This document shows positions 52,810-64,000 of a stretch of 64,000 nt of DNA, one piece after another; within the stretch, counting starts at the first letter, position 1; each line of letters opens with the position of its first letter. The stretch lies in NCBI GenBank assembly GCA_036403515.1, contig DASWQV010000093.1, positions 33,366 through 97,365 on the forward strand, given 5' to 3'. The stretch is from Solirubrobacterales bacterium (GTDB lineage: Bacteria > Actinomycetota > Thermoleophilia > Solirubrobacterales > 70-9). The position numbers and the translations under genes are program-made. The notes under the pieces were generated by a model. The model did not search any database. It worked only from the letters and a program-made list of their open reading frames with translations, and was not told the DNA's origin.

Positions 52810-53373
52810 ATGCCTCGAATCTTCGACCTCCTCATCGCTGCGCTTGCTCTCGTCGTCCTCTCGCCTCTTCTGGCGCTGGCGGTGCTCGCGATCAAGCTGG
52901 GAAGCCGCGGCCCGGTGATCTACCGGCAGCGCCGAGTCGGTCGGGGGGGCGAGGAGTTCGAGATGCTGAAGTTGCGGACGATGGTCGCTGGCTCCGATCC
53001 GATCGGCGTCGGCACCGTCGTCACCCGCGACGACCCCCGCGTCACTCGCGCGGGTCGCATCCTGCGCCGAACCTCGCTCGACGAGATTCCCAACCTGGTC
53101 AACGTCCTGCGTGGCGAGATGGCAATCGTCGGTCCCCGACCGACCATTCCGGCGCAGGTCGTCGCCTACACTCTCCGCCAGCGCCACCGCCACGACGTCC
53201 GCCCTGGGATCACCGGCTGGGCGCAGGTGCAGGGCCGAGCCGGTATCCCCTGGGAGGAGCGGATCGAGCTCGACCTCTGGTATGTCGAGCACCGCAGCGC
53301 CGCGCTCGACGCCCGCATCCTGCTCAAAACTCTCTGGCTGCTCATAACCGGCCACGGCCTTGCCCCGGACTGA
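52810..53373 (+). CDS. small monotopic phosphoglycosyl (sugar) transferase, priming enzyme
   Basis: SPLLALAVLAIKLGSRGPVIYRQRRVG..G..F...KLRTM and DEIPNLVNVLRGEMAIVGPRP. Confidence 0.9.
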   Translation: MPRIFDLLIAALALVVLSPLLALAVLAIKLGSRGPVIYRQRRVGRGGEEFEMLKLRTMVAGSDPIGVGTVVTRDDPRVTRAGRILRRTSLDEIPNLVNVLRGEMAIVGPRPTIPAQVVAYTLRQRHRHDVRPGITGWAQVQGRAGIPWEERIELDLWYVEHRSAALDARILLKTLWLLITGHGLAPD

Positions 53374-53411: not shown

Positions 53412-54242
53412 GTGGACTGGGTCAAGGAAATAGGGGGATCCGGAGGAGCCGACGGAGGATGGCGTAACGATCTTCCGCTCAGCCATGATCTTCCCGACAA
53501 GCTCGTGGTCGACTGTCGGCAACTCGCTCTACCCATCCATCCCATGTTCGCGGTGAGGCTCCGAGTCTTCATCGAGTGGCATCGGCACGAAGGGCGCACC
53601 GTTGAGGTCATTCCTCCAGTCAGCCTGGACGCCCGACGCGTCGTGCAGGCAATGCAGATCGACCCAACCGCAATGGCTTACGACGGTGACGACGATGCAG
53701 TCCTGCCAGTGACCCGCCTGGACAACGACACCATGGCGGAGGAGGCAGCTCGACGCACAAAAGAGATACTCGAGTACCAGCTAACCGATGTCTCTGGTCT
53801 GGGCGAGGCTGCATTTACGGCCGTCGCCGAGCTCTGCGACAACGCGCTCGATCATGGGCGGAACGCGCTGGGGGCGTACGTTGCAGTGCGCCGCGTCACC
53901 GAGCCGCGGCGGCAGGTCTCAATCGCAATCAGCGATTTGGGGATCGGCATTCCCGAGCATATTCGCCAGCGATATCCAGAGTGGAGCGATGACGGCTACG
54001 CCATCGCACACGCTCTGGAGCCGCATGTGACCGGAACTGGACATCCGCATCGAGGGATCGGCTTCTCCGATGTCTTCGAAGCCGCTCTGACCAAATCACT
54101 GCATGCAGCGAGGATGGACATCCATTCCGCAAACGGCTTCTATCGACTTCAGGTGGTTCAAGAACAGCGTAAGCCGGAGGCATTTCCCGCTGCACGTTTT
54201 CGCCGGGGTACCTGGATTGCCTACGACCTGATCTCGGTCTGA
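53412..54242 (+). CDS. GHKL-type (HATPase_c) ATP-binding protein with N-terminal STAS-like region, no DHp/receiver
   Basis: N box AELCDNALDHG, G1 ISDLGIGIP and G2-like HRGIGF. The N-terminal LVVDCRQLALPIHPMFAVRLRVFIEW...VEV resembles a STAS docking fold. GTG start is uncertain. Confidence 0.65.
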   Translation: MDWVKEIGGSGGADGGWRNDLPLSHDLPDKLVVDCRQLALPIHPMFAVRLRVFIEWHRHEGRTVEVIPPVSLDARRVVQAMQIDPTAMAYDGDDDAVLPVTRLDNDTMAEEAARRTKEILEYQLTDVSGLGEAAFTAVAELCDNALDHGRNALGAYVAVRRVTEPRRQVSIAISDLGIGIPEHIRQRYPEWSDDGYAIAHALEPHVTGTGHPHRGIGFSDVFEAALTKSLHAARMDIHSANGFYRLQVVQEQRKPEAFPAARFRRGTWIAYDLISV

Positions 54243-54298
54243 CTGGTCGCCGCACGGTCAACTACCATCGGTAAATCCCCAGCGGAAGGAGGTAGCGA

Positions 54299-54601
54299 AT
54301 GCCGTACTGCTATGCGCTTGCGCAGCATGGGACGACTCTGGCGACGCGACCTTTCGGAAAGAGGTTGCGCGCCGAGGTCGTTAAAGAGGCGGAAGGCCGA
54401 GAGCTCGTCGAGCTGGATTTTTCAGGAATTCTGAGCGCTAGCCACTCGTTTGCAGATGAGTTCGTCGCCCAACTCGCCGAAGATTCCAAGAATGGGATCG
54501 TCCATTTCGGAGTTGCCGTATCTGGTGCCGCACCCAACGTTGAGTCTCGACTCGCAAAGGCTCTAGAGCTTCGCGACGTCCGGCTGGTCGAGCTGGCTTA
54601 A
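54299..54601 (+). CDS. STAS-like (DUF4325-type) small protein
   Basis: 100 aa. ELVELDFSGILSASHSFADEFVAQL matches the DUF4325/STAS-like pattern. GGAGG Shine-Dalgarno upstream of the ATG. Confidence 0.6.
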   Translation: MPYCYALAQHGTTLATRPFGKRLRAEVVKEAEGRELVELDFSGILSASHSFADEFVAQLAEDSKNGIVHFGVAVSGAAPNVESRLAKALELRDVRLVELA

Positions 54602-54644: not shown

Positions 54645-55193
54645 ATGAGCGACCTTCCTCGAGTGTCCTTGCGCCCGTTTGAACTGGGCGATGCCGCCGC
54701 CGTGCACCGCTGGTTCAACAACCCGGCGGCGACCGCTTCGCTAATGGAGCAGCGGGACGGGTTCTCGCTTGCCGAGGCGGAGGCCTGGGTGGGGCGGGCG
54801 ATGGACGATTCGGGCGAGGACCGCAAGTACGCGATCGTGGTCGAGGGCTATGCGGAGCCGGTCGGCTTCACCGCTCTCTACGGACTCTTTCGCCAGACTG
54901 CACCCGAGCTCGGCGCGCTGATCGGCGACGACGTGCGCGGCAAGGGCGTCGGGCGGCGGGCGGAGGCGCTGACGATCGCCAAGGCCTTCGGCGAGTTCGG
55001 GGCCCACCGCGTCTACGGGCGGATTCCGGCCCGCAACGAGATAGCCAAGAAGACCGTCGCCAGCCTTGGCTGGAAGCACGAGGGAACGATGCGTGCCCAC
55101 CTGCGCCGCGCCGGCGAGCCGGCCGACGATTGCGAGGTCTGGGGCGTTCTTCCCGACGAGTTTCGCGCCGCGGCTGCCGACCTCCTCTCGTGA
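54645..55193 (+). CDS. GNAT family N-acetyltransferase (RimJ/RimL-like)
   Basis: LRPFELGDA..., the acetyl-CoA loop RGKGVGRRA and a conserved N..A......GW.HEG tail. Confidence 0.85.
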   Translation: MSDLPRVSLRPFELGDAAAVHRWFNNPAATASLMEQRDGFSLAEAEAWVGRAMDDSGEDRKYAIVVEGYAEPVGFTALYGLFRQTAPELGALIGDDVRGKGVGRRAEALTIAKAFGEFGAHRVYGRIPARNEIAKKTVASLGWKHEGTMRAHLRRAGEPADDCEVWGVLPDEFRAAAADLLS

Positions 55194-56161
55194 GCGACCC
55201 GCTCGCCACGGCCGAGTTGATCGAAGACCGCGGTCAGGCAGCGGTCAGCGACGAGTTCTTCCGCTCGCGCCCGTTCTTCGATGCCGAAGGCGTCACTCAC
55301 ACCCTCCGCATGGCGACTGACGGGGGGGAGCTGCGCGCGCCCGTGATCCTCAAGGAGATCCCCCCTTCGCCGGGACCAGATGCAGATCCTCGTCCCGTCG
55401 GCCCTGAGCTCGACGCGATATCGCCCTATGGGTATCCGGGAGTCGTGGCGCCCGCCGGGGTCTCAGCCGACCCGGCGACCGTCGATTTTTCCACGACCGG
55501 GCTCGTCACGGTCTTCATCCGCCACACCCTCGGCGCCCCTCCGCTCAGCGGCGCCAGCGAGCGCAACGTGGTCCAGATCGCCGACCCCGAGCTGCCGCCA
55601 AAGAGCCGGCCCAGCGATCGCAACCAGATCAACAAGAACCTGCGCCGTGGCTATGAGGTGCAGCTGCTCTCAGGCCCCGAGACGACCGCAAGCCAGCGTG
55701 CCGGCTTTTCCACCGCCTACGAGGAGACGATGCGCCGCACCGGCGCAAGCGAGCGCTATTTCTTTGCGGCCGCGTACTTCGATCGCCTCCTCCAATCGAG
55801 CCAGGCTTGGCTCGCCCTCGCCCGAGCTCCTAACGGCGAGATCGCCGCGGCCTCGATCGCGGTTCGCAGCGATGGTTACCTCCACTACTACCTGAGCGGC
55901 AGCACCGACTCCCACCTGCGCGACTCGCCGATGAAGAACGTCGTCGCCTCGCTGATCGAGCTCTCCGCCGAGCAGGGCCTGCCGCTCAACCTCGGCGGCG
56001 GGATTTCCCCCGGTGACCGGCTGGAGGAGTTCAAGCGCGGCTTCGCCAACCGGGAGCTGCCCTGGTCCACGTCGGAGATCGTCTGCGACCGCGAGGCTTA
56101 CGCCCGTCTCACCGCAGGCCGCGTGGTCGACGGCTTTTTCCCCGCTTACCGAGCTAGTTGA
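55190..56161 (+). CDS. FemAB-like / Acetyltransf_6 GNAT-fold protein
   Basis: The GTG start overlaps the GNAT stop (GTGA). ...GYLHYYLSGSTD..., and EEFKRGF resemble FemABX/CelD-like acyl- or aminoacyl-transferases. Confidence 0.5.
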   Translation: MSDPLATAELIEDRGQAAVSDEFFRSRPFFDAEGVTHTLRMATDGGELRAPVILKEIPPSPGPDADPRPVGPELDAISPYGYPGVVAPAGVSADPATVDFSTTGLVTVFIRHTLGAPPLSGASERNVVQIADPELPPKSRPSDRNQINKNLRRGYEVQLLSGPETTASQRAGFSTAYEETMRRTGASERYFFAAAYFDRLLQSSQAWLALARAPNGEIAAASIAVRSDGYLHYYLSGSTDSHLRDSPMKNVVASLIELSAEQGLPLNLGGGISPGDRLEEFKRGFANRELPWSTSEIVCDREAYARLTAGRVVDGFFPAYRAS

Positions 56162-56936
56162 TCGTCGGTTCTTCCGGCGTCGGGCCGGTGAAGGAGAAAC
56201 CGGCGACCGGCTCGCGCCCGTGGCCCCAGGTCTTGGCGCCGAAGGCACGGATCGCATCGAGGGTGATCGCGCCCTTGTATTCGTTGCAGCCGATCAGGTT
56301 GTGCCAGGTCGTGGCGGCGACTTCATACGGCATGTTTTCGTTCGGGAAGAGCAGGGTCGCCCCGTACATCGTGTCGTAGAGACCGATCAGTTCCAGCTGG
56401 GCGCTTTCGGAGAGGCTGGGGCTGTATTGGATCTCCAGCCGGCCGTGCTCCATCGAGTGAACGAAGTCAATTTCCTGTGGCATTTCCTTGTAGGCGCCGT
56501 CAGCCTGCTGATAGGGAGGTTCGACGTGGTTGCCGGAGGTCGGCGGATTGGTTTTGTATTCAGGCGTTGGCGCGGTCGGCGGGATGTGGTTGTGGCCCTC
56601 TTCGGGAAGTTTGAGCCGCAGGTCGCAGTCCGCCTTCTTGGCCGCCTCTTCCAAATTGGTCACCTTCGGCGCCGGCGGCGTGGTTCCAGAGCGTTCGTCG
56701 GGTTGGACGCCGTTGGTCGAGCCCGACGCCTGGTTGATGTGGGCTTCGCCGCTGTCGTTCTTGTCGGCGGCAGAGACGACGATCGCCACGATGCCGGCGA
56801 GTACAGCGAGGCCGACGAGACCGGCCACGCCGTAGCCAATCATCAAGCGCCGCCGCTCGGACCCCGACTGTTTGCTCTCGCGCTCCTGCCGGGCCTGGCG
56901 GAGTCGCTCCCTCTCTTCCTCCCTGCGGTTAGCCAT
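56154..56936 (-). CDS. DUF3105 domain-containing membrane-anchored protein
   Basis: N-terminal TM, then YKTNPPTSGNH...VHSMEHG, typical of DUF3105. Confidence 0.8.
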   Translation of the reverse strand: MANRREEERERLRQARQERESKQSGSERRRLMIGYGVAGLVGLAVLAGIVAIVVSAADKNDSGEAHINQASGSTNGVQPDERSGTTPPAPKVTNLEEAAKKADCDLRLKLPEEGHNHIPPTAPTPEYKTNPPTSGNHVEPPYQQADGAYKEMPQEIDFVHSMEHGRLEIQYSPSLSESAQLELIGLYDTMYGATLLFPNENMPYEVAATTWHNLIGCNEYKGAITLDAIRAFGAKTWGHGREPVAGFSFTGPTPEEPTIN

Positions 56937-59097: not shown

Positions 59098-59102
59098 CCC
59101 GC

Positions 59103-59783
59103 TCACTCCCTGCCGGTGACGCGCCGCATCTCGTTCTCGGCCTCTTCGGGACCGAGGTAAGGCATCAGCACGGCGAAGACCAGGTCGGGAAGGATCCGCT
59201 TCAGTTCTGGGCCTCGCCCAGCACGGATCTCGTCGAAGATCATCGAGGTGGCGCCGCCGATCGCAAAGCGCGCCGTATCCGCCGGCAGCTCCTCGCCCTG
59301 AGTGGAGTACTCGCGACCCTCCTCGAGAAACGGCGTGAAGCGCGCCAGCGCGGCCCGGTAACGCGCCCGAGCGTCGTCGCCGGCAGCCGTGACCTCGACC
59401 ATCGAAAGGCGGGCGATGTCGGCCTCGACGGCGAGCAGTTCGACCAGGGCGCGCAGGCCGGCCGCGATCCGCTCCGGCCAGGGCTCGCTCGCGGCTGACT
59501 CGAAGGCTGCCGTGACATGGGCGACGAGGACGTCGAAGACCGCGTCGTAGGCCTCGAGGAAGCAGGTCGGCTTATCGCCGAACATCTCCTCGAAGGCCTC
59601 GCGGGAGACACCCGCCACCTCGATCACATCGGTCACCGTGGTGGCCTCGTAGCCCTTCGCCGCGGCGACCCGCAGCATCGCCTCCAGCAAGCGCTCGCGC
59701 TGGGAGCGGACCAGGTAGGCACGCGGCAAGCCGTGGCGTCCACCAGGGACTCTTTCTGGATTCGAAGTAGATGGCGAATCCAC
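59103..59783 (-). CDS. TetR-family regulator, paralog 1
   Basis: GGRHGLPRAYLVRSQRERLLEA...GYEATTVTDVIEVAGVSREAFEEMF and the C-terminal LPDLVFAVLMPYLGPEEA motif. GTG 59783 chosen to avoid overlap with paralog 2. Confidence 0.8.
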   Translation of the reverse strand: MDSPSTSNPERVPGGRHGLPRAYLVRSQRERLLEAMLRVAAAKGYEATTVTDVIEVAGVSREAFEEMFGDKPTCFLEAYDAVFDVLVAHVTAAFESAASEPWPERIAAGLRALVELLAVEADIARLSMVEVTAAGDDARARYRAALARFTPFLEEGREYSTQGEELPADTARFAIGGATSMIFDEIRAGRGPELKRILPDLVFAVLMPYLGPEEAENEMRRVTGRE

Positions 59784-59823
59784 ACGATCAGCGTAGGGCA
59801 GCGCCCGCGCCCTGTCCAACCGT

Positions 59824-60540
59824 TCAGGCTCGGGCGGCCTGCATCTCGGCGCTGGCAACCTCGGCGCCGAAATAGGGCAGCACAGCGAAGTACATGAACT
59901 CCGGCAGAAGCGCGCGAAAGCCGCCTTCCTCGCCTGTCGCGAGCCTGGCGTGAATCACCGCGTGCATGCCGGCGACGATCCCCTCGGCGGCGATCGGCGG
60001 CGGCGATCCGGCGCCCTCTGAGGCGTGCCTGGCCGAATCGATGAAATCGGTGACGCGTTTCATCGCTTGGGAACGCTTTTGAAGCGCCTCGGGGCCGGCT
60101 GCGTGCACCTCGACGATCAGGGCGCGGCCCAGATCTGGGTCCGAGTCGAGCAGCTCGAGCAGTGCGCTGAGCCCGGCGCGAAGCTGGCCCCGCCAGCTCT
60201 CTCCGGCAGCACCGGCAGCCCGGGCGGCGGCTTCCAGACGCGCCACGCCGAAGTCGAAAGCCTCCAGGTAACAGGCGTCCTTATCGGCGAACTCGTCGTA
60301 GAAGGCCTGCCGGTAAAGACCGGTCAGATCGAGCACCATGCGCACGGACGCGGCGTCGTAGCCGTTCGTCCCAACCACCTCGAGCATCCCCTCGAGGATC
60401 TTCTGACGCTTCGGGGAACTCACCAGTCTGAGTGCGGGAACTTGCGGGGAAACATTCCCCGTCGCGGCGGTCCCTTCAGCCCCTGCCTGGACCTTGGGTG
60501 CGGCCTGCTTTCCCATCTGACCTTTCCTCTGCTCGATCAA
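59824..60540 (-). CDS. TetR-family regulator, paralog 2
   Basis: KRQKILEGMLEVVGTNGYDAASVRMVLDLTGLYRQAFYDEF and C-terminal LPEFMYFAVLPYFGAEVA. Start is TTG 60540 or ATG 60516. Confidence 0.8.
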   Translation of the reverse strand: MIEQRKGQMGKQAAPKVQAGAEGTAATGNVSPQVPALRLVSSPKRQKILEGMLEVVGTNGYDAASVRMVLDLTGLYRQAFYDEFADKDACYLEAFDFGVARLEAAARAAGAAGESWRGQLRAGLSALLELLDSDPDLGRALIVEVHAAGPEALQKRSQAMKRVTDFIDSARHASEGAGSPPPIAAEGIVAGMHAVIHARLATGEEGGFRALLPEFMYFAVLPYFGAEVASAEMQAARA

Positions 60541-60662
60541 GGGAACGGGTTGTCTGGAGTCCGGTACTGTAGCGGTATCTGGTCAATACGTCCAGCTTGG
60601 AATCAGATACCCATAGGGGTACTCTGGCGTTCGTGCCCGATCGTGCTCCCCAAGCGACCAGA

Positions 60663-61313
60663 ATGCCGCCGGGGCGCCATCCACTGCCCCGCGAGTTCAT
60701 CGCTCAGCACCAGCGGGCCCGCATCATCGCCGCCCTCGCCGAGGAGACGGTCGAGAAGGGATACCGGGCCGTCACGGTCGCCGACATCGTCCGCCGCGCC
60801 GGCATCGCCCGCAACACCTTCTACGAGAACTTCTCCTCCAAGGAGGATTGTTTCCTCGCCGCCTCGGAGTTCGCGGTCAAGGAGGCGCTGCGCCGCGTGG
60901 TCGACGCCGCAAGCAAGGTCGACACCTGGCCGGCCCGCGTCAACTCCGGCCTTGCCGCCTTCCTGCACTACGTGGCCACCGAGCCGGCCCTGGCCCGCAC
61001 CTGCATCGTCGAGGCGCTATCGGCTGGCCCCGCCGCGGTCGACCGCTACGAGCGCTCGATCCAGGCCTTCGTGCCGCTCTTCCGCATGGGCCGCAAGGTT
61101 TCCTCAAAGGGCGAAGAGCTGCCTGGCACACTCGAGGAGACGATCGTCGGCGGCATCTTCTGGATCCTCTACCAGCGCATCATCATGGGACAGGCCGAGC
61201 AGATCGAGAGCCTGCTCGCCGAGCTGGTCGAGTTCTCCCTCACTCCTTACCTCGGTGCCGAGGCCGCCAAGCGGATCGCCGCCGAACAACCGTCGACACC
61301 CGCTGCGGGTTGA
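60663..61313 (+). CDS. TetR-family regulator, paralog 3
   Basis: MPPGRHPLPREFIAQHQRARII...GYRAVTVADIVRRAGIARNTFYENF and C-terminal LAELVEFSLTPYLGAEAA. ATG 60663 chosen by alignment to the paralogs (the ORF opens at 60597). Confidence 0.8.
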   Translation: MPPGRHPLPREFIAQHQRARIIAALAEETVEKGYRAVTVADIVRRAGIARNTFYENFSSKEDCFLAASEFAVKEALRRVVDAASKVDTWPARVNSGLAAFLHYVATEPALARTCIVEALSAGPAAVDRYERSIQAFVPLFRMGRKVSSKGEELPGTLEETIVGGIFWILYQRIIMGQAEQIESLLAELVEFSLTPYLGAEAAKRIAAEQPSTPAAG

Positions 61314-61392
61314 GCCAGGGGCAGGGATCGGGGGTCCCATGACCTAGTGCCGCCTCACGCAGATAAGCGCCGTCTTTACGAGAGGCGGCACT

Positions 61393-62754
61393 GTGCTTGA
61401 CCTGGAGACCCGCGAGCGCGCCGCCAGCCCCGAGCGCGAGCGCATCGTCGAGGCCCTGATTGAGATCGCCGCCGAGCGCGGCTATGCCGAGACCACGATC
61501 GAGCTGATCTTGGAACGGGCCGGCCTCGACCGGCCCGCCTTCGATCGTCACTTTCGCGGCAAGTACGACTGCTTCCTGACCGCTTGGCAGGAGATCAACG
61601 AGGGCTGCATGAGGGAGATGCTCGAGGCCTTCAACAGCCAGGAGGAATGGCCCGACCGCCTGCGGGCCGTCGCCTGCGAGATCGTCGACAACCTGCGCCA
61701 CGATCCAAATCGGGCCTCCTTCGCGGTCGAGGTGCTCTCGGCTGGAGACGCTGCCCGGGCTCGCCGCGACATGACGATGCGGGTGATCGCCTCGTTGATC
61801 GACGCTGGCCGCAACGAGATGGACGACCCGGAGTCGGTGCCGCACACCACCGCCGAGGCGCTGGCAGGTTCCGCCTACGGCCAGGTCTACGCCAAGGTCG
61901 TACGGGGTGAGGCCGACGAGCTGCCGGCCCTCGTTCCCCAATTGCTGTCCGCCGCGGTGATGCCGTACCTGGGGGTCGAGGCGGGACTGGCCGAGTTGAC
62001 GCGTGGCTTCGACCCGCCAGCGCGATATCGTCGGGACGTGGCTAAAAAATCTTCCCCCGGTAAATCCGGCGGGACCAACGTTCCTGCCGAGGATTACCCG
62101 CCTGAGCTGGCACGTCTCCCGCCCGGTCGTCACGGCCTTCCGCGCGAGTTCGTCGTCCATAACCAGCGTGAGCGGCTGATTGCCGGCCTCGCCGAGGCGA
62201 TTGCCGAAAACGGCTACTCGGGCACGACGATCGCCCACATCACCCGCCACGCTGCCGTCTCTCGACGGACGTTCTACGAGCACTTCTCGAGCAAGGACGA
62301 GTGCTTCGTCGCCGCCTACGACACCGTGATGGCCGAGCTACGCCAGCGCGTCTCAGCCGCCTTCGAGGGCGCTGAAGACTGGCCGCACGCCGTCAAAGCC
62401 GGCATCGGCGCGATGCTCGAGTTCCTCGCCGCGGAGCCGAGCCTGGCGCGCCTCTGCATGGTTGAGGCGCTGGTCGCCGGCCCGGTCGTGGTCGAGCGCT
62501 ACGACGCCGCGATCCAGAGCTTCGTCCCCTACTTTCAGAGCGGTCGCGAGGGCCGTCCGCCCGAGGTCCTCGCCCGGCTTTCGCCGACCACCGAGGAGGC
62601 CCTGGTCGGCGGCATGGTCTCGTTGATCTCGCGGCGAATCATCGCCGGCAAAGCCGAAGAGCTCGAAGAGCTCCTCCCCGACCTCGTCGAGTTCACCCTC
62701 ACCCCGTACGTTGGCAGCGCCGAGGCGGCAAAGCTGGCGCGGGAGCCCGACTGA
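61393..62754 (+). CDS. fused double TetR-family protein (two complete HTH + ligand-domain modules)
   Basis: Module 1 has ERERIVEALIEIAAERGYAETTIELILERAGLDRPAFDRHF and ends in MPYLGVEA. A linker follows. Module 2 has PPGRHGLPREFVVHNQRERL...GYSGTTIAHITRHAAVSRRTFYEHF and ends in LTPYVGSAEA. Confidence 0.8.
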   Translation: MLDLETRERAASPERERIVEALIEIAAERGYAETTIELILERAGLDRPAFDRHFRGKYDCFLTAWQEINEGCMREMLEAFNSQEEWPDRLRAVACEIVDNLRHDPNRASFAVEVLSAGDAARARRDMTMRVIASLIDAGRNEMDDPESVPHTTAEALAGSAYGQVYAKVVRGEADELPALVPQLLSAAVMPYLGVEAGLAELTRGFDPPARYRRDVAKKSSPGKSGGTNVPAEDYPPELARLPPGRHGLPREFVVHNQRERLIAGLAEAIAENGYSGTTIAHITRHAAVSRRTFYEHFSSKDECFVAAYDTVMAELRQRVSAAFEGAEDWPHAVKAGIGAMLEFLAAEPSLARLCMVEALVAGPVVVERYDAAIQSFVPYFQSGREGRPPEVLARLSPTTEEALVGGMVSLISRRIIAGKAEELEELLPDLVEFTLTPYVGSAEAAKLAREPD

Positions 62755-62756
62755 GC

Positions 62757-63431
62757 TCAGGCGCCCGGGTCGAGCGGGGTGAGGTCGGGGGACCCAAGCT
62801 CCAGCCAGGCCTCGTCCTCGCCGAAGTACTGGAGCACCGCCAGGTGGGTCAGGTCAGGCAGCAGGCGCTCGACCGTCGCGGTGCGGCCGGCGCCGATCTC
62901 CGCGCAAATCGCTTCCTCGACCGCGCCGACGACGAACTGGGCGGTGAGGGTGGTCGCAAGGGGCCGGGCGCCGGGCTGGTGGCGGGCGGAGTCGACGGCC
63001 TTCGCGAGTTGCTCGATCGCCTGCTGGTGCTTGTCCCAGGCCTGGCCGCGGGCCGACCGCACCTCGATCAGCAGCGCCTTCGCCATCACGGGCTGCTCGG
63101 CGATCGTGCGCAGCAACCTGGCCAAGGCGGCGCGGAAGCCCGCCCGCCAGCTCTCGGCCCCGCGGGCCGCTTCGAGCACTTCCGCGCAGATTCTGTCCAC
63201 CGCCATCTCATAGGCCTGCGCGAAACAGGCCTCCTTGCCGCCAAAGCGGCGCTGGAAGCGCTCGCGTGAGATCCCGCTGCGGTCCCGCACTTCCTGCACG
63301 CTCGCCTTCTCGTAGCCGCGGGCGCCGACGCTGAGCAGGATCGCTTCCAGCGCTCCCTCGTCTGAGGACGCCCGCTCTGGAATTGCCTCATCCCATGAGC
63401 GAACCGCGCGCAGTGTGGTCGGACTTTCCAC
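62757..63431 (-). CDS. TetR-family regulator, paralog 5
   Basis: LEAILLSVGARGYEKASVQEVRDRSGISRERFQRRF and C-terminal LPDLTHLAVLQYFGEDEA. Confidence 0.8.
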   Translation of the reverse strand: MESPTTLRAVRSWDEAIPERASSDEGALEAILLSVGARGYEKASVQEVRDRSGISRERFQRRFGGKEACFAQAYEMAVDRICAEVLEAARGAESWRAGFRAALARLLRTIAEQPVMAKALLIEVRSARGQAWDKHQQAIEQLAKAVDSARHQPGARPLATTLTAQFVVGAVEEAICAEIGAGRTATVERLLPDLTHLAVLQYFGEDEAWLELGSPDLTPLDPGA

Positions 63432-63517
63432 TCGGGGTACCTTAGACCATCTTTGGGAACTTATGACACTTCATATACTCCCTTCGTACCAATGGGAACG
63501 CGCGCTATCCTGACCCA

Positions 63518-64000
63518 GTGCGCGCATTGCCTGGAAAGGCCTCCCGGCAGCCGCCCGGTCCCGAGCCGGTCAGCCGCGCCGCTTCCGCGGCGGATCAACG
63601 ACGCCGGATTCTCGAGGCAACCGCGGACCTGATCGCTGAGCAGGGCTATGCCGAGACGACGATCGAGCAGATCGTGCGCCGGGCGCGGGTCGGTTACGCG
63701 ACCTTCTACAAGCACTACGCCGACAAGCAGGAGGCCTTCCTGGCGTTGCTCGACTCCGCGGTCGAGCGCACCGCTTATGTGGTCGAGGAAGCCTATGACC
63801 GCGAAACGGGGCCATGGCCGGACAAGGTCGGCGCTGCGCTGGGAGCGCTGCTCGAACAGGTCGCGGCGCACCCCAACGTCGCCAGGGCCTGCCTGGTCGA
63901 GGCGCCCACGGCGGGGCCCGAGGCGGCGGCGCACCACGAGGCGGCGCTGAAGCGCTTCGCGCCGCTGCTGCGCCCTGGCCGCGAGCTCAATCCGCGCAGC
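63518..64000 (+). CDS. TetR-family regulator, paralog 6 (3' end truncated by window)
   Basis: Hand translation from GTG 63518: ...DQRRRILEATADLIAEQGYAETTIEQIVRRARVGYATFYKHY... Open to the window end. Absent from the ORF track, presumably because no stop codon is reached. Confidence 0.7.
   Translation, partial: MRALPGKASRQPPGPEPVSRAASAADQRRRILEATADLIAEQGYAETTIEQIVRRARVGYATFYKHYADKQEAFLALLDSAVERTAYVVEEAYDRETGPWPDKVGAALGALLEQVAAHPNVARACLVEAPTAGPEAAAHHEAALKRFAPLLRPGRELNPRS

What the first reader, a model, noticed from the sequence alone, without database searches (positions are those of the whole stretch)
53412..54601. Orphan GHKL-ATPase + STAS-like (DUF4325-type) gene pair in a lower-GC islet: candidate uncharacterised partner-switching or conflict module
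A two-gene cassette is wedged between the polysaccharide locus (priming transferase ends at 53373) and a GNAT gene (54645).

Gene 1 (276 aa) has clear Bergerat-fold motifs: N box ELCDNALDHG, G1 DLGIGIP and G2-like RGIGF. It has no DHp/His-phosphotransfer domain, no receiver and no TM. Its N-terminal ~100 aa looks STAS-like.

Gene 2 (100 aa) matches the STAS-like DUF4325 pattern (ELVELDFSGI..ASHSFADEFV).

This architecture recalls the anti-sigma kinase plus anti-anti-sigma pairs RsbW/RsbV and SpoIIAB/SpoIIAA. However, no sigma factor or PP2C partner is adjacent. The segment is visibly more A/T-rich than its ~70% GC surroundings, which suggests horizontal acquisition.

I know of no characterised function for this pairing, so it is the best candidate in the window for an undescribed system (signalling or anti-phage/conflict).
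Basis: partly seen in the sequence, partly recalled or inferred. Interest (0 to 1): 0.7.

Follow-up and report, generated by a model that had tools for sequence, protein, structure and literature searches.

The report
Effector-less CapK/VapS-type kinase–STAS pair
The two genes are a real, conserved kinase-plus-substrate pair related to the DNA-damage-sensing CapK/CapS and VapK/VapS immune switches described in 2026, but this version carries no DNA-binding domain or toxin, so what it controls is unknown.

Summary
Gene 1 (53412-54242, 276 aa) is a STAS-like domain fused to a GHKL kinase with invariant ATP-binding motifs. Gene 2 (54299-54601, 100 aa) is a STAS-only DUF4325 protein. The pair is about 9 GC points below its flanks.

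The interpretation needs updating. Profile comparisons place gene 1 with CapK/VapK (54-62 bits; hhalign 99%), not RsbW/SpoIIAB (9-19 bits). Gene 2 shares Pfam DUF4325 with VapS. Its invariant Ser50 aligns with CapS Ser54, the proven phospho-acceptor (Chambers et al., EMBO J 2026).

In 37 of 37 distinct loci (27-100% identity, almost all Solirubrobacterales) the kinase gene is followed directly by the STAS gene. No third gene recurs, and there is no HTH, wHTH, PIN toxin, sigma factor or PP2C.

The islet is not a recent acquisition. The pair is syntenic at 62-88% identity, and its low GC is conserved (33/37 loci). It is under purifying selection (dN/dS 0.03-0.17) yet diverges faster than its flanks.

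Best reading: a minimal kinase–substrate phospho-switch, possibly activated by ssDNA, acting on an unlinked target. It is a new variant of a recently described kind. The output, the low GC and the excess divergence remain unexplained.

The parts
53412..54242 (+). Gene 1 ('K'): 276-aa STAS-GHKL serine-kinase-like protein of the CapK/VapK type
   Evidence: ORF. Pfam HATPase_c 30.8 bits. The family profile scores CapK at 62.3 and 55.5 bits and VapK at 54.1 bits, against RsbW 10.4 and SpoIIAB 8.9. hhalign to CapK/VapK gives 98.8-99.4% probability, E 9e-17. AF2 model pTM 0.82.
53412..53720 (+). N-terminal STAS-like domain of K (aa 1-103). Pro44 occupies the helix N-cap where substrate STAS proteins carry the phospho-Ser, so this domain is not predicted to be a substrate.
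   Evidence: AF2 secondary structure E3-6, E30-34, H44-59, E63-67, H72-80, E96-103. Aligned to the CapK STAS domain. D34, P44, R49, W56, H57 and P69 are conserved in 35-37 of 37 sequences.
53460..53462 (+). Trp17 codon (DGGW). hhalign pairs it with CapK Trp68, the ssDNA-stacking residue.
   Evidence: hhalign local alignment starts at DGGW / GDAW. The position is aromatic in 35 of 37 sequences (W28, Y6, F1). The role of W68 is from PMC13373217. The equivalence is inferred, not proven.
53727..54242 (+). GHKL (Bergerat-fold) kinase domain of K (aa 106-276, stop codon included)
   Evidence: Pfam HATPase_c aa 134-239. Foldseek matches to GyrB, Hsp90 and TopoII ATPase domains. The best PDB sequence match of the family profile is SpoIIAB.
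53829..53858 (+). N box ELCDNALDHG (E140, N144 = Mg/ATP Asn equivalent to CapK N218, H148, G149)
   Evidence: Invariant in the broad alignment. E36/37, N36/37, H37/37, G37/37. Aligned to CapK SELIGNVRDH.
53934..53954 (+). G1 box DLGIGIP (D175, G177, G179, P181)
   Evidence: 37 of 37 conserved. Aligned to CapK SDSGLGI and VapK DFGVGIP.
54048..54065 (+). G2 box HRGIGF (R214, G215, G217)
   Evidence: R214, G215 and G217 are 37/37. The segment just before it (aa 208-216) is low-confidence in AF2, as expected for an ATP lid.
54286..54294 (+). Shine-Dalgarno GGAAGGAGG for gene 2
   Evidence: Read directly from the sequence, 4 nt (TAGC) upstream of the ATG at 54299.
54299..54601 (+). Gene 2 ('S'): 100-aa STAS-only DUF4325 protein, the predicted kinase substrate
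   Evidence: Pfam DUF4325 34.4 bits. VapS is in the same Pfam family at 62.7 bits. AF2 pLDDT 90.7, and the fold matches RsbS and SpoIIAA. It lies directly downstream of K in 37 of 37 loci.
54446..54448 (+). Ser50 codon: the predicted phospho-acceptor at the start of STAS helix alpha2 (motif S48-H-S50-F51-A-D53-E54)
   Evidence: The HMM alignment maps S50 to CapS S54. S50, F51 and D53 are 38/38, and S48 is 37/38. Phosphorylation of CapS S54 is from PMC13373217.

Best explanation
The two genes form a self-contained bicistronic kinase-substrate switch of the CapK/CapS-VapK/VapS superfamily, in a minimal form with no effector.

- **Gene 1 (K)** is a STAS-GHKL protein serine kinase.
- **Gene 2 (S)** is a single-domain DUF4325/STAS protein.
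- **Proposed mechanism.** When activated, K binds S and transfers the ATP gamma-phosphate to Ser50 at the start of helix alpha2. This changes the self-association of S or its binding to a partner.

By analogy with CapK and VapK, the activating signal may be single-stranded DNA bound between the STAS and kinase domains of K.

S carries no wHTH domain and no toxin gene accompanies it. The output must therefore be a protein encoded elsewhere in the genome, or K itself.

**Shown here:** the homology, the architecture, the conserved catalytic and acceptor residues, obligate gene pairing, purifying selection and natural K-S fusions.

**Inferred:** phosphotransfer to Ser50, ssDNA activation and a trans-acting output.
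For: **Homology of K.**
- The broad gene 1 profile scores CapK at 62.3 and 55.5 bits and VapK at 54.1 bits, against 9-10 bits for RsbW and SpoIIAB.
- hhalign gives 98.8-99.4% probability over the STAS and GHKL domains.

**Homology of S.**
- It is DUF4325, like VapS.
- Its family profile hits actinomycete CapS-like DUF4325-wHTH proteins at 43-49 bits, VapS at 23.9 bits, and SpoIIAA/RsbV at only about 2 bits.

**Functional residues.**
- The N, G1 and G2 boxes are invariant or nearly so (at most 1 exception in 37), down to 27% identity.
- Ser50 is invariant (38/38) and aligns with CapS Ser54.

**Pairing.**
- K is followed by S within about 0-150 bp on the same strand in all 37 distinct loci that have a full-length K. 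This holds even where the flanks are unrelated.
- K-to-S distance matrices correlate (r = 0.79).
- Natural K-S fusion proteins exist. P0295 shows a DUF4325 match (sub-threshold, 17.7 bits) at its C-terminus. P0299 carries a similar C-terminal motif seen by eye, with no Pfam DUF4325 match.

**Function is maintained.** dN/dS is 0.03-0.17.

**No other component.**
- 112 neighbours of 21 non-syntenic pairs fall into 114 Pfam families, and no gene recurs.
- There is no PP2C in these neighbourhoods and none is described for CapKS or VapKSC.

**ssDNA sensing (suggestive only).**
- W17 aligns with CapK W68 and the position is aromatic in 35 of 37 sequences.
- A basic hairpin with invariant R161 aligns with the CapK K237/K239 loop.

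**Minimal pairs elsewhere.** The same STAS-only architecture occurs in Streptococcus prophage Javan140, probably in Gordonia phage Phishy, and next to gyrA in another lineage.
Against: - No biochemical data exist for this clade.
- The close-family profile alone gives only weak scores to CapK/VapK (17-19 bits). Membership therefore rests on transitive profile homology.
- The gene 2 close-family profile scores VapS and CapS only 14-16 bits.
- The VapK ssDNA residue F54 lies in the beta3-alpha2 loop, where the window protein has Leu rather than an aromatic residue. ssDNA sensing may therefore not be conserved.
- A STAS-only S protein has no evident output, and no partner could be identified.
- The chromosomal, syntenic, housekeeping context differs from the immune-operon context of every characterised member.
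- The pair has been deleted in at least one lineage (L045), so it is dispensable.
The independent PDB search gave SpoIIAB 19 bits.
Confidence: 0.6

Rival explanations
1. Classical RsbW/RsbV- or SpoIIAB/SpoIIAA-type partner switching. K would be an anti-sigma factor that sequesters an unlinked sigma factor, and S would be its antagonist, reset by an unlinked PP2C phosphatase.
For: - SpoIIAB is the best sequence match of the K profile among solved structures (19 bits, E 0.006).
- The S fold matches RsbS and SpoIIAA.
- The N-box motif (A-V-x-E-L-C-x-N-A-x-x-H-G) is RsbW-like.
- Two of 112 neighbours in paralogous loci carry Sigma70_r4.
Against: - The K profile scores CapK/VapK 54-62 bits against 9-19 bits for SpoIIAB/RsbW.
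- K is 276 aa with an N-terminal STAS domain, unlike the roughly 145-aa single-domain anti-sigma kinases.
- No sigma factor or PP2C lies within +/-10 kb here.
- Two sigma-region hits among 112 neighbours is about the background rate.
- The S profile scores SpoIIAA and RsbV about 1-2 bits.
Confidence: 0.08
2. A local regulator of the adjacent cell-envelope polysaccharide locus and/or the downstream acetyltransferases. It would work like SypE/SypA in the Vibrio fischeri syp locus, where a STAS-only protein controls polysaccharide output post-transcriptionally.
For: - In the window and at least 15 syntenic loci the pair sits co-directionally with short gaps (38, 56 and 43 nt): GT4, GT2, Bac_transf, K, S, GNAT, Acetyltransf_6. 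No convincing terminator lies between them.
- A second, differently arranged locus (L007/L008, 55% identity) is also next to Polysacc_synt, Wzy_C and LytR_C genes.
- The SypE/SypA precedent is from my own knowledge of the literature and was not checked here.
Against: - The syntenic loci are related genomes, so they count as roughly one observation.
- Nineteen other pairs lie beside unrelated genes such as GGDEF, cation efflux, acyltransferases, MerR and HxlR.
- The pair has its own conserved low GC, and its distances track the flanks only weakly.
- In L045 the pair was deleted while the neighbours stayed intact.
Confidence: 0.12
3. A three-gene toxin-antitoxin-like system analogous to VapKSC, with the downstream GNAT acetyltransferase (54645-55193) in the role of the toxin held in check by S.
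For: - The GNAT gene follows S by 43 nt on the same strand.
- GNAT-fold toxins exist (TacT/AtaT; my own knowledge, not checked here).
- GNATs also flank K-S pairs in L025 and L032.
Against: - The GNAT has host-like GC3 (0.85) and is the most conserved gene of the locus (82-90% identity, mean distance 0.146, against 0.33-0.41 for the pair).
- It stays intact (86% identity) in L045, where S is destroyed.
- It is absent from most non-syntenic pairs.
- It belongs to Acetyltransf_3, the RimJ/RimL-like family.
Confidence: 0.03
4. A stand-alone conflict or anti-phage module. The cassette would be kept or exchanged as a unit among Solirubrobacterales, sense infection-associated ssDNA, and act through K itself or through a host or phage protein captured by S.
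For: - All characterised relatives are immune regulators or an anti-phage TA system (PMC13373217).
- Minimal K-S pairs sit in prophage accessory regions: Javan140 after the lysin, and Phishy between the tail genes and the integrase.
- The actinomycete branch flanks Bub operons in mobile or restriction-modification islands.
- The pair has conserved lower GC. Its dN and dS are 2-8 times those of the flanks, with low dN/dS, and its distances are poorly correlated with the flanks.
- It has been lost in one lineage.
Against: - PADLOC gives no hit for K and only a marginal one for S.
- There are no defence genes within +/-10 kb here, and no defence enrichment around 21 paralogous pairs.
- The position is fixed and syntenic across relatives at 62-88% identity, with one copy per genome as far as could be seen.
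- No effector domain is present.
Confidence: 0.15

Closest known systems
VapK-VapS of the VapKSC toxin-antitoxin / anti-phage system (Escherichia sp. E4736; Chambers et al., EMBO J 2026, PMC13373217)
   Same: - K has the same STAS-GHKL architecture with no N-terminal HTH. The profile scores VapK 54 bits.
- S is a small DUF4325 STAS protein, the same Pfam family as VapS.
- S has a conserved Ser at the start of helix alpha2.
- The gene order is K then S, and no cognate phosphatase is present.
   Different: - There is no VapC/PIN toxin gene. The downstream gene is a conserved GNAT.
- S lacks the C-terminal inhibitory helix of VapS (100 aa against 116 aa).
- The context is chromosomal, syntenic and housekeeping, in Thermoleophilia. 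No Actinobacteria appear in the published VapKSC list.
- The VapK F54 position is Leu in the window protein.
CapK-CapS regulators of Bub, CBASS and Thoeris operons (Enterobacter roggenkampii, Vibrio cholerae; PMC13373217)
   Same: - This is the highest profile score (62 and 55 bits) and the hhalign match is 99% over STAS and GHKL.
- Ser50 aligns with the proven acceptor, CapS Ser54.
- W17 aligns with the ssDNA-sensing W68.
- Actinomycete relatives of the window family are genuine K plus DUF4325-wHTH pairs beside Bub operons.
   Different: - K has no N-terminal HTH.
- S has no wHTH domain, so it cannot be a DNA-binding repressor.
- No immune operon lies downstream.
SpoIIAB-SpoIIAA and RsbW-RsbV partner-switching modules
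   Same: - A GHKL serine kinase phosphorylates (or is predicted to phosphorylate) a STAS protein on the alpha2 serine.
- SpoIIAB is the best match of the K profile in PDB by sequence.
- RsbS and SpoIIAA are the best fold matches of S.
   Different: - K has an extra STAS domain.
- No sigma factor or PP2C is nearby.
- Profile scores are much weaker than to CapK/VapK.
SiaB-SiaC (Pseudomonas) and SypE-SypA (Vibrio fischeri). Both are recalled from my own knowledge and were not tested here.
   Same: A GHKL-type kinase acts on a STAS or STAS-like single-domain protein whose output is not transcriptional. SypA is encoded within a polysaccharide locus.
   Different: Those systems include a PP2C phosphatase (SiaA, or the C-terminal domain of SypE) and other domains. 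No sequence comparison was run here.

Membership tests
CapK/VapK-type STAS-GHKL kinase superfamily | An N-terminal STAS-like domain fused to a C-terminal GHKL kinase domain, homologous over both | tested here: met
   hhalign of A3 against CapK/VapK gives 98.8-99.4% probability and E 9e-17, covering query residues 14-~225 in local mode and the full length in global mode. hmmsearch gives 54-62 bits. AF2 shows a two-domain model.
CapK/VapK-type STAS-GHKL kinase superfamily | An intact Bergerat ATP site including the catalytic Asn (CapK N218) | tested here: met
   E140, N144, H148, D175, G177, G179, G215 and G217 are invariant in the broad alignment and 36-37 of 37 across the loci. N144 aligns to the Asn of CapK ELIGN.
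CapK/VapK-type STAS-GHKL kinase superfamily | The kinase gene is immediately followed by a STAS-domain substrate gene | tested here: met
   True in 37 of 37 distinct loci with a full-length K. The published figure for capK is 443 of 443.
CapK/VapK-type STAS-GHKL kinase superfamily | The substrate has an absolutely conserved Ser/Thr at the start of STAS helix alpha2 (CapS S54, VapS S48) | tested here: met
   S50 is 38/38 and aligns to CapS S54. S48 is 37/38. VapS S48 aligns one residue away, at H49.
CapK/VapK-type STAS-GHKL kinase superfamily | An aromatic ssDNA-stacking residue (CapK W68 / VapK F54) and a basic groove (CapK K237, K239) | tested here: inconclusive
   hhalign pairs W17 with W68, and the position is aromatic in 35 of 37 sequences. 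R161 is invariant in the hairpin aligned to the CapK YKGKRR loop. However, VapK F54 lies in the beta3-alpha2 loop, where the window protein has L38/L40.
CapK/VapK-type STAS-GHKL kinase superfamily | ssDNA-stimulated phosphorylation of the STAS partner | not testable with these tools
   Needs a kinase assay or Phos-tag gel. No multimer or nucleic-acid structure prediction was available.
CapKS (sensu stricto) | CapK carries an N-terminal HTH domain | tested here: not met
   Only 16 residues precede W17. No HTH family is found by Pfam. CapK residues 1 to about 50 have no counterpart in the alignment.
CapKS (sensu stricto) | CapS carries a C-terminal wHTH DNA-binding domain | tested here: not met
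   Gene 2 is 100 aa, and its homologues across the 37 other distinct loci are 81-103 aa, all STAS only. By contrast the actinomycete relatives are 188-200 aa with MarR-like wHTH.
CapKS (sensu stricto) | Encoded next to the promoter of an immune operon (Bub, CBASS, Thoeris and others) | tested here: not met
   Within +/-10 kb there are polysaccharide genes, GNATs, MTHFR, ECH and TetR genes only. PADLOC finds nothing relevant around the related pairs.
VapKSC | A VapC (PIN) toxin as the third gene of the operon | tested here: not met
   The downstream gene is Acetyltransf_3. No PIN domain appears in the +/-10 kb annotations, nor among the 25 most recurrent of the 114 Pfam families found in the 112 neighbours.
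VapKSC | VapS = DUF4325 STAS domain plus a C-terminal helix that occludes the VapC active site | tested here: not met
   The DUF4325 part is met (34.4 bits; VapS 62.7 bits). The C-terminal extension is absent: the last STAS helix ends at residue 91 of 100.
RsbW/SpoIIAB - RsbV/SpoIIAA partner switching | A single-domain GHKL anti-sigma kinase encoded with its sigma factor | tested here: not met
   K has two domains and is 276 aa. No sigma factor lies within +/-10 kb. Profile scores are 9-19 bits against 54-62 bits for CapK/VapK.
RsbW/SpoIIAB - RsbV/SpoIIAA partner switching | A cognate PP2C (SpoIIE/RsbU/RsbP) phosphatase | tested here: inconclusive
   None lies within +/-10 kb, and none appears among the 25 most recurrent of the 114 Pfam families found in 112 neighbours of related pairs. 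The rest of the genome could not be searched.
Pfam DUF4325 (PF14213) | Score above the curated gathering threshold | tested here: met
   34.4 bits against a cutoff of 23, aa 20-62.

The most novel reading that the evidence does not exclude
The pair is a stripped-down, chromosomally fixed form of the CapK/VapK sensor. It would be a DNA-damage or ssDNA-activated phospho-switch found widely across the order, whose STAS-only substrate acts on an unlinked, conserved cellular target.

That would amount to a LexA-independent damage- or infection-signalling route in Thermoleophilia.

Its conserved low GC and its two- to eight-fold excess divergence at a fixed locus would then reflect continual in-place allelic exchange driven by conflict with phages.
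Probability: 0.18. Interest if true: 0.7.

Novelty: new variant of a known kind. Interest (0 to 1): 0.5.

Why it matters
CapK/CapS and VapK/VapS were described in 2026 as modular switches. In each, a shared ssDNA-activated kinase drives a different output: a repressor or a toxin.

The window pair, its roughly 40 relatives in Solirubrobacterales, and similar pairs in Streptococcus and probably Gordonia prophages show the module also exists with no output domain and no linked effector. It is kept under purifying selection in a housekeeping context.

This poses a concrete question that can be tested: what does a STAS-only substrate control? It also extends the family to a poorly studied actinobacterial class that is absent from the published surveys.

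For annotation, these genes should no longer be called 'anti-sigma regulatory factor', 'histidine kinase' or 'hypothetical'. They are better described as a CapK/VapK-like kinase and a VapS-like STAS substrate.

The conserved low GC3, together with raised dN and dS at a fixed locus, is an unexplained evolutionary signature that deserves a proper phylogenetic test.

Tried and rejected
- **Defence-family search.** PADLOC gave nothing for K and only a marginal DrmA hit for S (E 0.044). I treated this as noise.
- **NCBIfam.** Only sub-threshold hits.
- **Literature search for 'DUF4325'.** Three incidental mentions only.
- **Whole-model Foldseek of K.** Against PDB and BFVD it returned only generic GHKL hits (GyrB, Hsp90, TopoII, rIIA) with poor TM scores, because the model has two domains. 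It could not discriminate clades.
- **Genome scan with the broad alignment.** An intermediate alignment worked. Because the scan is pattern-based, it is biased towards Solirubrobacterales.
- **Recent horizontal acquisition.** Rejected. The pair is syntenic at 62-88% identity and the low GC is conserved in 33 of 37 loci.
- **A conserved third gene.** Rejected. The 112 neighbours fall into 114 Pfam families, and no cluster of homologous neighbours spans more than 2 loci.
- **Defence-island context.** Not seen.
- **GNAT as toxin.** Rejected on conservation, on GC, and on its survival in L045 where S is deleted.
- **Promoter and terminator scan.** No sigma-70-like promoter, and only one weak terminator-like hairpin inside gene 2. 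This is uninformative for an actinobacterium.
- **Extra copies in the window.** None.
- **First mapping of VapK F54.** My initial mapping from the OCR'd table was wrong. The deposited AF3 CIF shows a 5-residue longer N-terminus, which weakened the ssDNA-residue argument.
Full report
**1. Observation**

Two co-directional ORFs occupy 53412-54242 (276 aa, GTG start) and 54299-54601 (100 aa, ATG preceded by GGAAGGAGG). They lie 38 nt after a Bac_transf priming glycosyltransferase and 43 nt before an Acetyltransf_3 GNAT gene.

Gene 1 passes Pfam's threshold for HATPase_c (30.8 vs 26.4 bits). Gene 2 passes the threshold for DUF4325 (34.4 vs 23 bits).

The 276-aa start is the right one, because residues 1-23 are conserved in homologues.

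GC falls to 0.59-0.62 across the pair, against about 0.70 on both sides. The drop is mostly at third codon positions: GC3 is 0.66 and 0.60, against 0.82-0.89 in eight neighbouring genes.

**2. Anatomy**

AlphaFold2 on a 27-sequence alignment (pTM 0.82) gives two domains:
- an N-terminal beta/alpha domain at residues 1-103;
- a Bergerat-fold domain, with a disordered lid just before the G2 box.

Across homologues down to 23-27% identity, the conserved columns are the N box (E140, N144, H148, G149), the G1 box (D175, G177, G179, P181) and the G2 box (R214, G215, G217). These are invariant or show at most one exception in 37 sequences. A few STAS-domain positions are also conserved (D34, P44, R49, W56, H57, P69), along with R161 and W268. 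This pattern indicates an enzyme that binds ATP.

The gene 2 model (pLDDT 90.7) is a four-stranded STAS fold. Its best PDB matches are RsbS, SpoIIAA (as seen in the SpoIIAB complexes) and SLC26 STAS domains. Its invariant residues cluster at G11, T16, R17 and in the motif S48-x-S50-F51-x-D53-E54 at the start of helix alpha2.

**3. Relatives and context**

The window comes from a Solirubrobacterales (Thermoleophilia) metagenome contig.
- A word-indexed search found 307 gene 1 homologues at 55-91% identity.
- An exhaustive profile search of 1.8 billion cluster representatives found 1,221 at E<=1e-3, 204 at E<=1e-10 and 69 at E<=1e-30.
- A scan of GTDB species genomes returned 41 loci, nearly all Solirubrobacterales, Conexibacteraceae, Baekduia or Thermoleophilaceae.

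In all 37 distinct loci with a full-length kinase gene, a DUF4325 homologue follows on the same strand within about 0-150 bp.

The loci fall into two groups:
- **Group A** (about 62-100% identity to gene 1) keeps the window's gene order: GT2, GT4, GT2, Bac_transf, K, S, GNAT, Acetyltransf_6, (DUF3105), MTHFR.
- **Group B** (27-58% identity) lies in unrelated places.

For group B, 112 flanking proteins from 21 loci fall into 114 Pfam families, mostly housekeeping. They show no PP2C, no sigma-factor enrichment, no defence enrichment in PADLOC and no recurrent unannotated neighbour. The conserved unit is therefore the two-gene cassette itself.

Natural single-chain fusions of the two proteins exist. 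P0295 has the STAS-like N-terminal domain (from its full-length match to the family), a Pfam HATPase_c hit and a DUF4325 match at 17.7 bits. P0299 has a similar C-terminal motif seen by eye.

**4. What family it belongs to**

A profile of the broad gene 1 family finds SpoIIAB as its best sequence match among all PDB chains, but only weakly (19 bits).

The gene 2 profile weakly hit two 2026 PDB entries, 'Escherichia VapS' (9Z7O) and a wHTH regulator (9Z71). That led to Chambers et al., EMBO J 2026 (PMC13373217). The paper shows the following:
- CapK (HTH-STAS-GHKL) is activated by ssDNA. Key residues are W68, K237/K239 and the catalytic N218.
- CapK phosphorylates Ser54 of the repressor CapS (STAS-wHTH). 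This dissolves the CapS dimer and de-represses Bub, CBASS or Thoeris operons.
- VapK (STAS-GHKL) is proposed to phosphorylate VapS (a STAS domain plus a C-terminal helix) on Ser48, releasing the PIN toxin VapC.

Using the sequences from the paper's Appendix Table S2, I compared the families directly:

| Comparison | Result |
|---|---|
| Broad gene 1 profile vs CapK | 62.3 and 55.5 bits |
| Broad gene 1 profile vs VapK | 54.1 bits |
| Broad gene 1 profile vs RsbW, SpoIIAB | 10.4 and 8.9 bits |
| hhalign, gene 1 family vs CapK/VapK | 98.8-99.4% probability, E 9e-17, spanning both domains |
| VapS vs Pfam DUF4325 | 62.7 bits |
| Gene 2 family profile (38 loci) vs actinomycete DUF4325-wHTH proteins | 43-49 bits |
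| Same profile vs Streptococcus prophage STAS-only protein | 25.6 bits |
| Same profile vs VapS | 23.9 bits |
| Same profile vs SpoIIAA, RsbV | about 2 bits |

The alignment puts gene 2 Ser50 on CapS Ser54.

The pair therefore belongs to the CapK/VapK-CapS/VapS superfamily and not to an ordinary RsbW/RsbV clade.

**5. How it differs**

- K has no N-terminal HTH.
- S has no wHTH and no C-terminal inhibitory helix.
- There is no PIN toxin or immune operon.

It fails the defining features of CapKS and of VapKSC in the strict sense, while meeting those of the shared kinase-substrate core.

The published surveys (443 capKS and 289 vapKSC loci) contain no Actinobacteria and do not mention two-gene-only pairs.

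Relatives examined here show the whole range of architectures:
- **CapKS-like.** Actinomycete pairs (Nocardioides, Haloechinothrix, Micromonospora and a Janibacter plasmid) are divergent from Multi_ubiq/ThiF/BubE/JAB operons in mobile or restriction-modification islands.
- **Minimal STAS-only pairs.** These occur in Streptococcus prophage Javan140 and probably Gordonia phage Phishy, in accessory 'moron' positions. Another sits directly after gyrA in a different lineage.

**6. Mechanism proposed**

K binds S and phosphorylates Ser50. Phosphorylation switches the self-association or partner binding of S.

The signal may be ssDNA. hhalign pairs W17 with CapK W68, and the position is aromatic in 35 of 37 sequences. 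A basic hairpin containing invariant R161 aligns with the loop holding CapK K237/K239.

This step is only suggestive. The deposited AF3 model shows that VapK F54 lies in the beta3-alpha2 loop, where the window protein has Leu.

The output is unknown. It could be an unlinked protein, or K itself as in classical partner switching.

Neither CapKS nor VapKSC is described with a cognate phosphatase, so the lack of a PP2C gene is not an anomaly.

**7. Evolution**

The 'horizontally acquired islet' reading does not hold in its simple form.
- The pair is syntenic at 62-88% protein identity.
- Low GC is a conserved trait of the cassette: 33 of 37 loci are at least 3 points below their flanks, with a mean of -8.7 points.

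Both genes are under purifying selection (dN/dS 0.03-0.17). Yet both dN and dS are 2-8 times those of the flanking genes in the same genome pairs.

K and S distances correlate with each other (r = 0.79) but poorly with the flanks (r = 0.27-0.45), although flank-to-flank correlations are also only 0.38-0.46.

Two explanations remain open. NG86 may under-count dS in genes with GC3 near 0.88, or the cassette may have a deeper or partly independent history, such as in-place allelic exchange.

One lineage (L045) carries a frameshifted remnant. It has a deletion from about K residue 75 to S residue 47, beside an intact GNAT. The pair is therefore dispensable, and the GNAT is not a toxin restrained by S.

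**8. Rivals**

| Rival | Confidence | Main objection |
|---|---|---|
| Classical anti-sigma partner switching | 0.08 | Profile scores, architecture and context all point elsewhere |
| Local regulator of the polysaccharide/GNAT genes | 0.12 | Supported only by one syntenic arrangement plus L007/L008; contradicted by 19 other contexts |
| K-S-GNAT toxin-antitoxin system | 0.03 | GNAT conservation, host-like GC and survival in L045 |
| Stand-alone conflict module | 0.15 | Fits the family's known biology, the prophage relatives and the odd evolutionary signature, but no effector and no defence context is present |

**9. Verdict**

This is a real and well-supported feature. The architecture was read correctly by the first stage, but it is not categorically new. 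It is an effector-less, chromosomally fixed variant of a kinase-STAS switch first characterised in 2026.

Interest is moderate. The open points are the missing output, whether ssDNA sensing is retained, and the conserved low GC with excess divergence.

**Caveats**
- All functional statements are inferred from homology.
- The CapK/VapK sequences came from an OCR'd table.
The independent PDB search agrees in direction.

Noticed in passing
window ~59100-64000 (L004 15560-20699): A run of at least seven consecutive TetR_N-family regulator genes on both strands. This is an unusually dense array of paralogous repressors.
   Followed up: no
window 56154-56936 (- strand): The DUF3105 gene has lower GC (0.64) than its neighbours. 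It is present in some otherwise syntenic loci and absent from others (no hit in L006, L013-L017, L021, L027).
   Followed up: partly
L045:7900-8500 (Actinomycetota bacterium SZAS-14): In this syntenic locus the K-S pair is reduced to a frameshifted remnant. The remnant joins roughly K residues 1-75 to S residues 47-100, while Bac_transf and the GNAT next to it are intact.
   Followed up: yes
L024:7950-8900 (OY970392.1, long-read MAG): The K gene reads through three frame changes, while S is intact. This could be a real pseudogene or nanopore indel errors.
   Followed up: partly
L050:3435-4574 (Gordonia phage Phishy gp32-gp33); L051:2650-3839 (Streptococcus phage Javan140_0051-0052): Temperate phages carry K plus small-S pairs in accessory regions. 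In Phishy the pair lies between the tail genes and the integrase. In Javan140 it lies after the lysin, near paratox. The Javan140 partner is a 99-aa DUF4325 protein. Phishy gp33 (75 aa) has the ISFADEL motif but no Pfam hit.
   Followed up: partly
L053, L054, L056, L052 (Nocardioides, Haloechinothrix, Micromonospora, Janibacter plasmid): In Actinomycetes, K plus DUF4325-MarR-like-wHTH pairs lie divergent from Bub-type operons (Multi_ubiq, ThiF/DUF6791, BubE, Prok-JAB). They sit beside relaxase, excisionase or restriction-modification genes. These look like CapKS-type regulators in a phylum absent from the published capKS and vapKSC lists, and the kinase here lacks the HTH domain.
   Followed up: partly
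L055:6001-7244: A minimal K (297 aa) plus a 116-aa S-like protein (motif PSFFDEL) starts 5 nt after gyrA and lies before a FUR gene. The genome has DUF1800/DUF1501 genes and the phylum is unknown.
   Followed up: partly
P0295 (450 aa), P0299 (409 aa): Single polypeptides combine the STAS-like domain, the GHKL domain and a C-terminal DUF4325-like STAS domain. They are natural fusions of the two window genes.
   Followed up: partly
L025:7324-7902, L032:9335-9652, window 54645-55193: GNAT-type acetyltransferases of different families flank K-S pairs in three different arrangements. This may be chance, given how common GNATs are in Actinobacteria.
   Followed up: partly
window 53412-54601 and 15 syntenic loci: Synonymous and non-synonymous divergence of the pair is 2-8 times that of adjacent genes in the same genome pairs, despite low dN/dS. 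The cause is unresolved: it could be a compositional artefact of NG86 or a decoupled history.
   Followed up: partly
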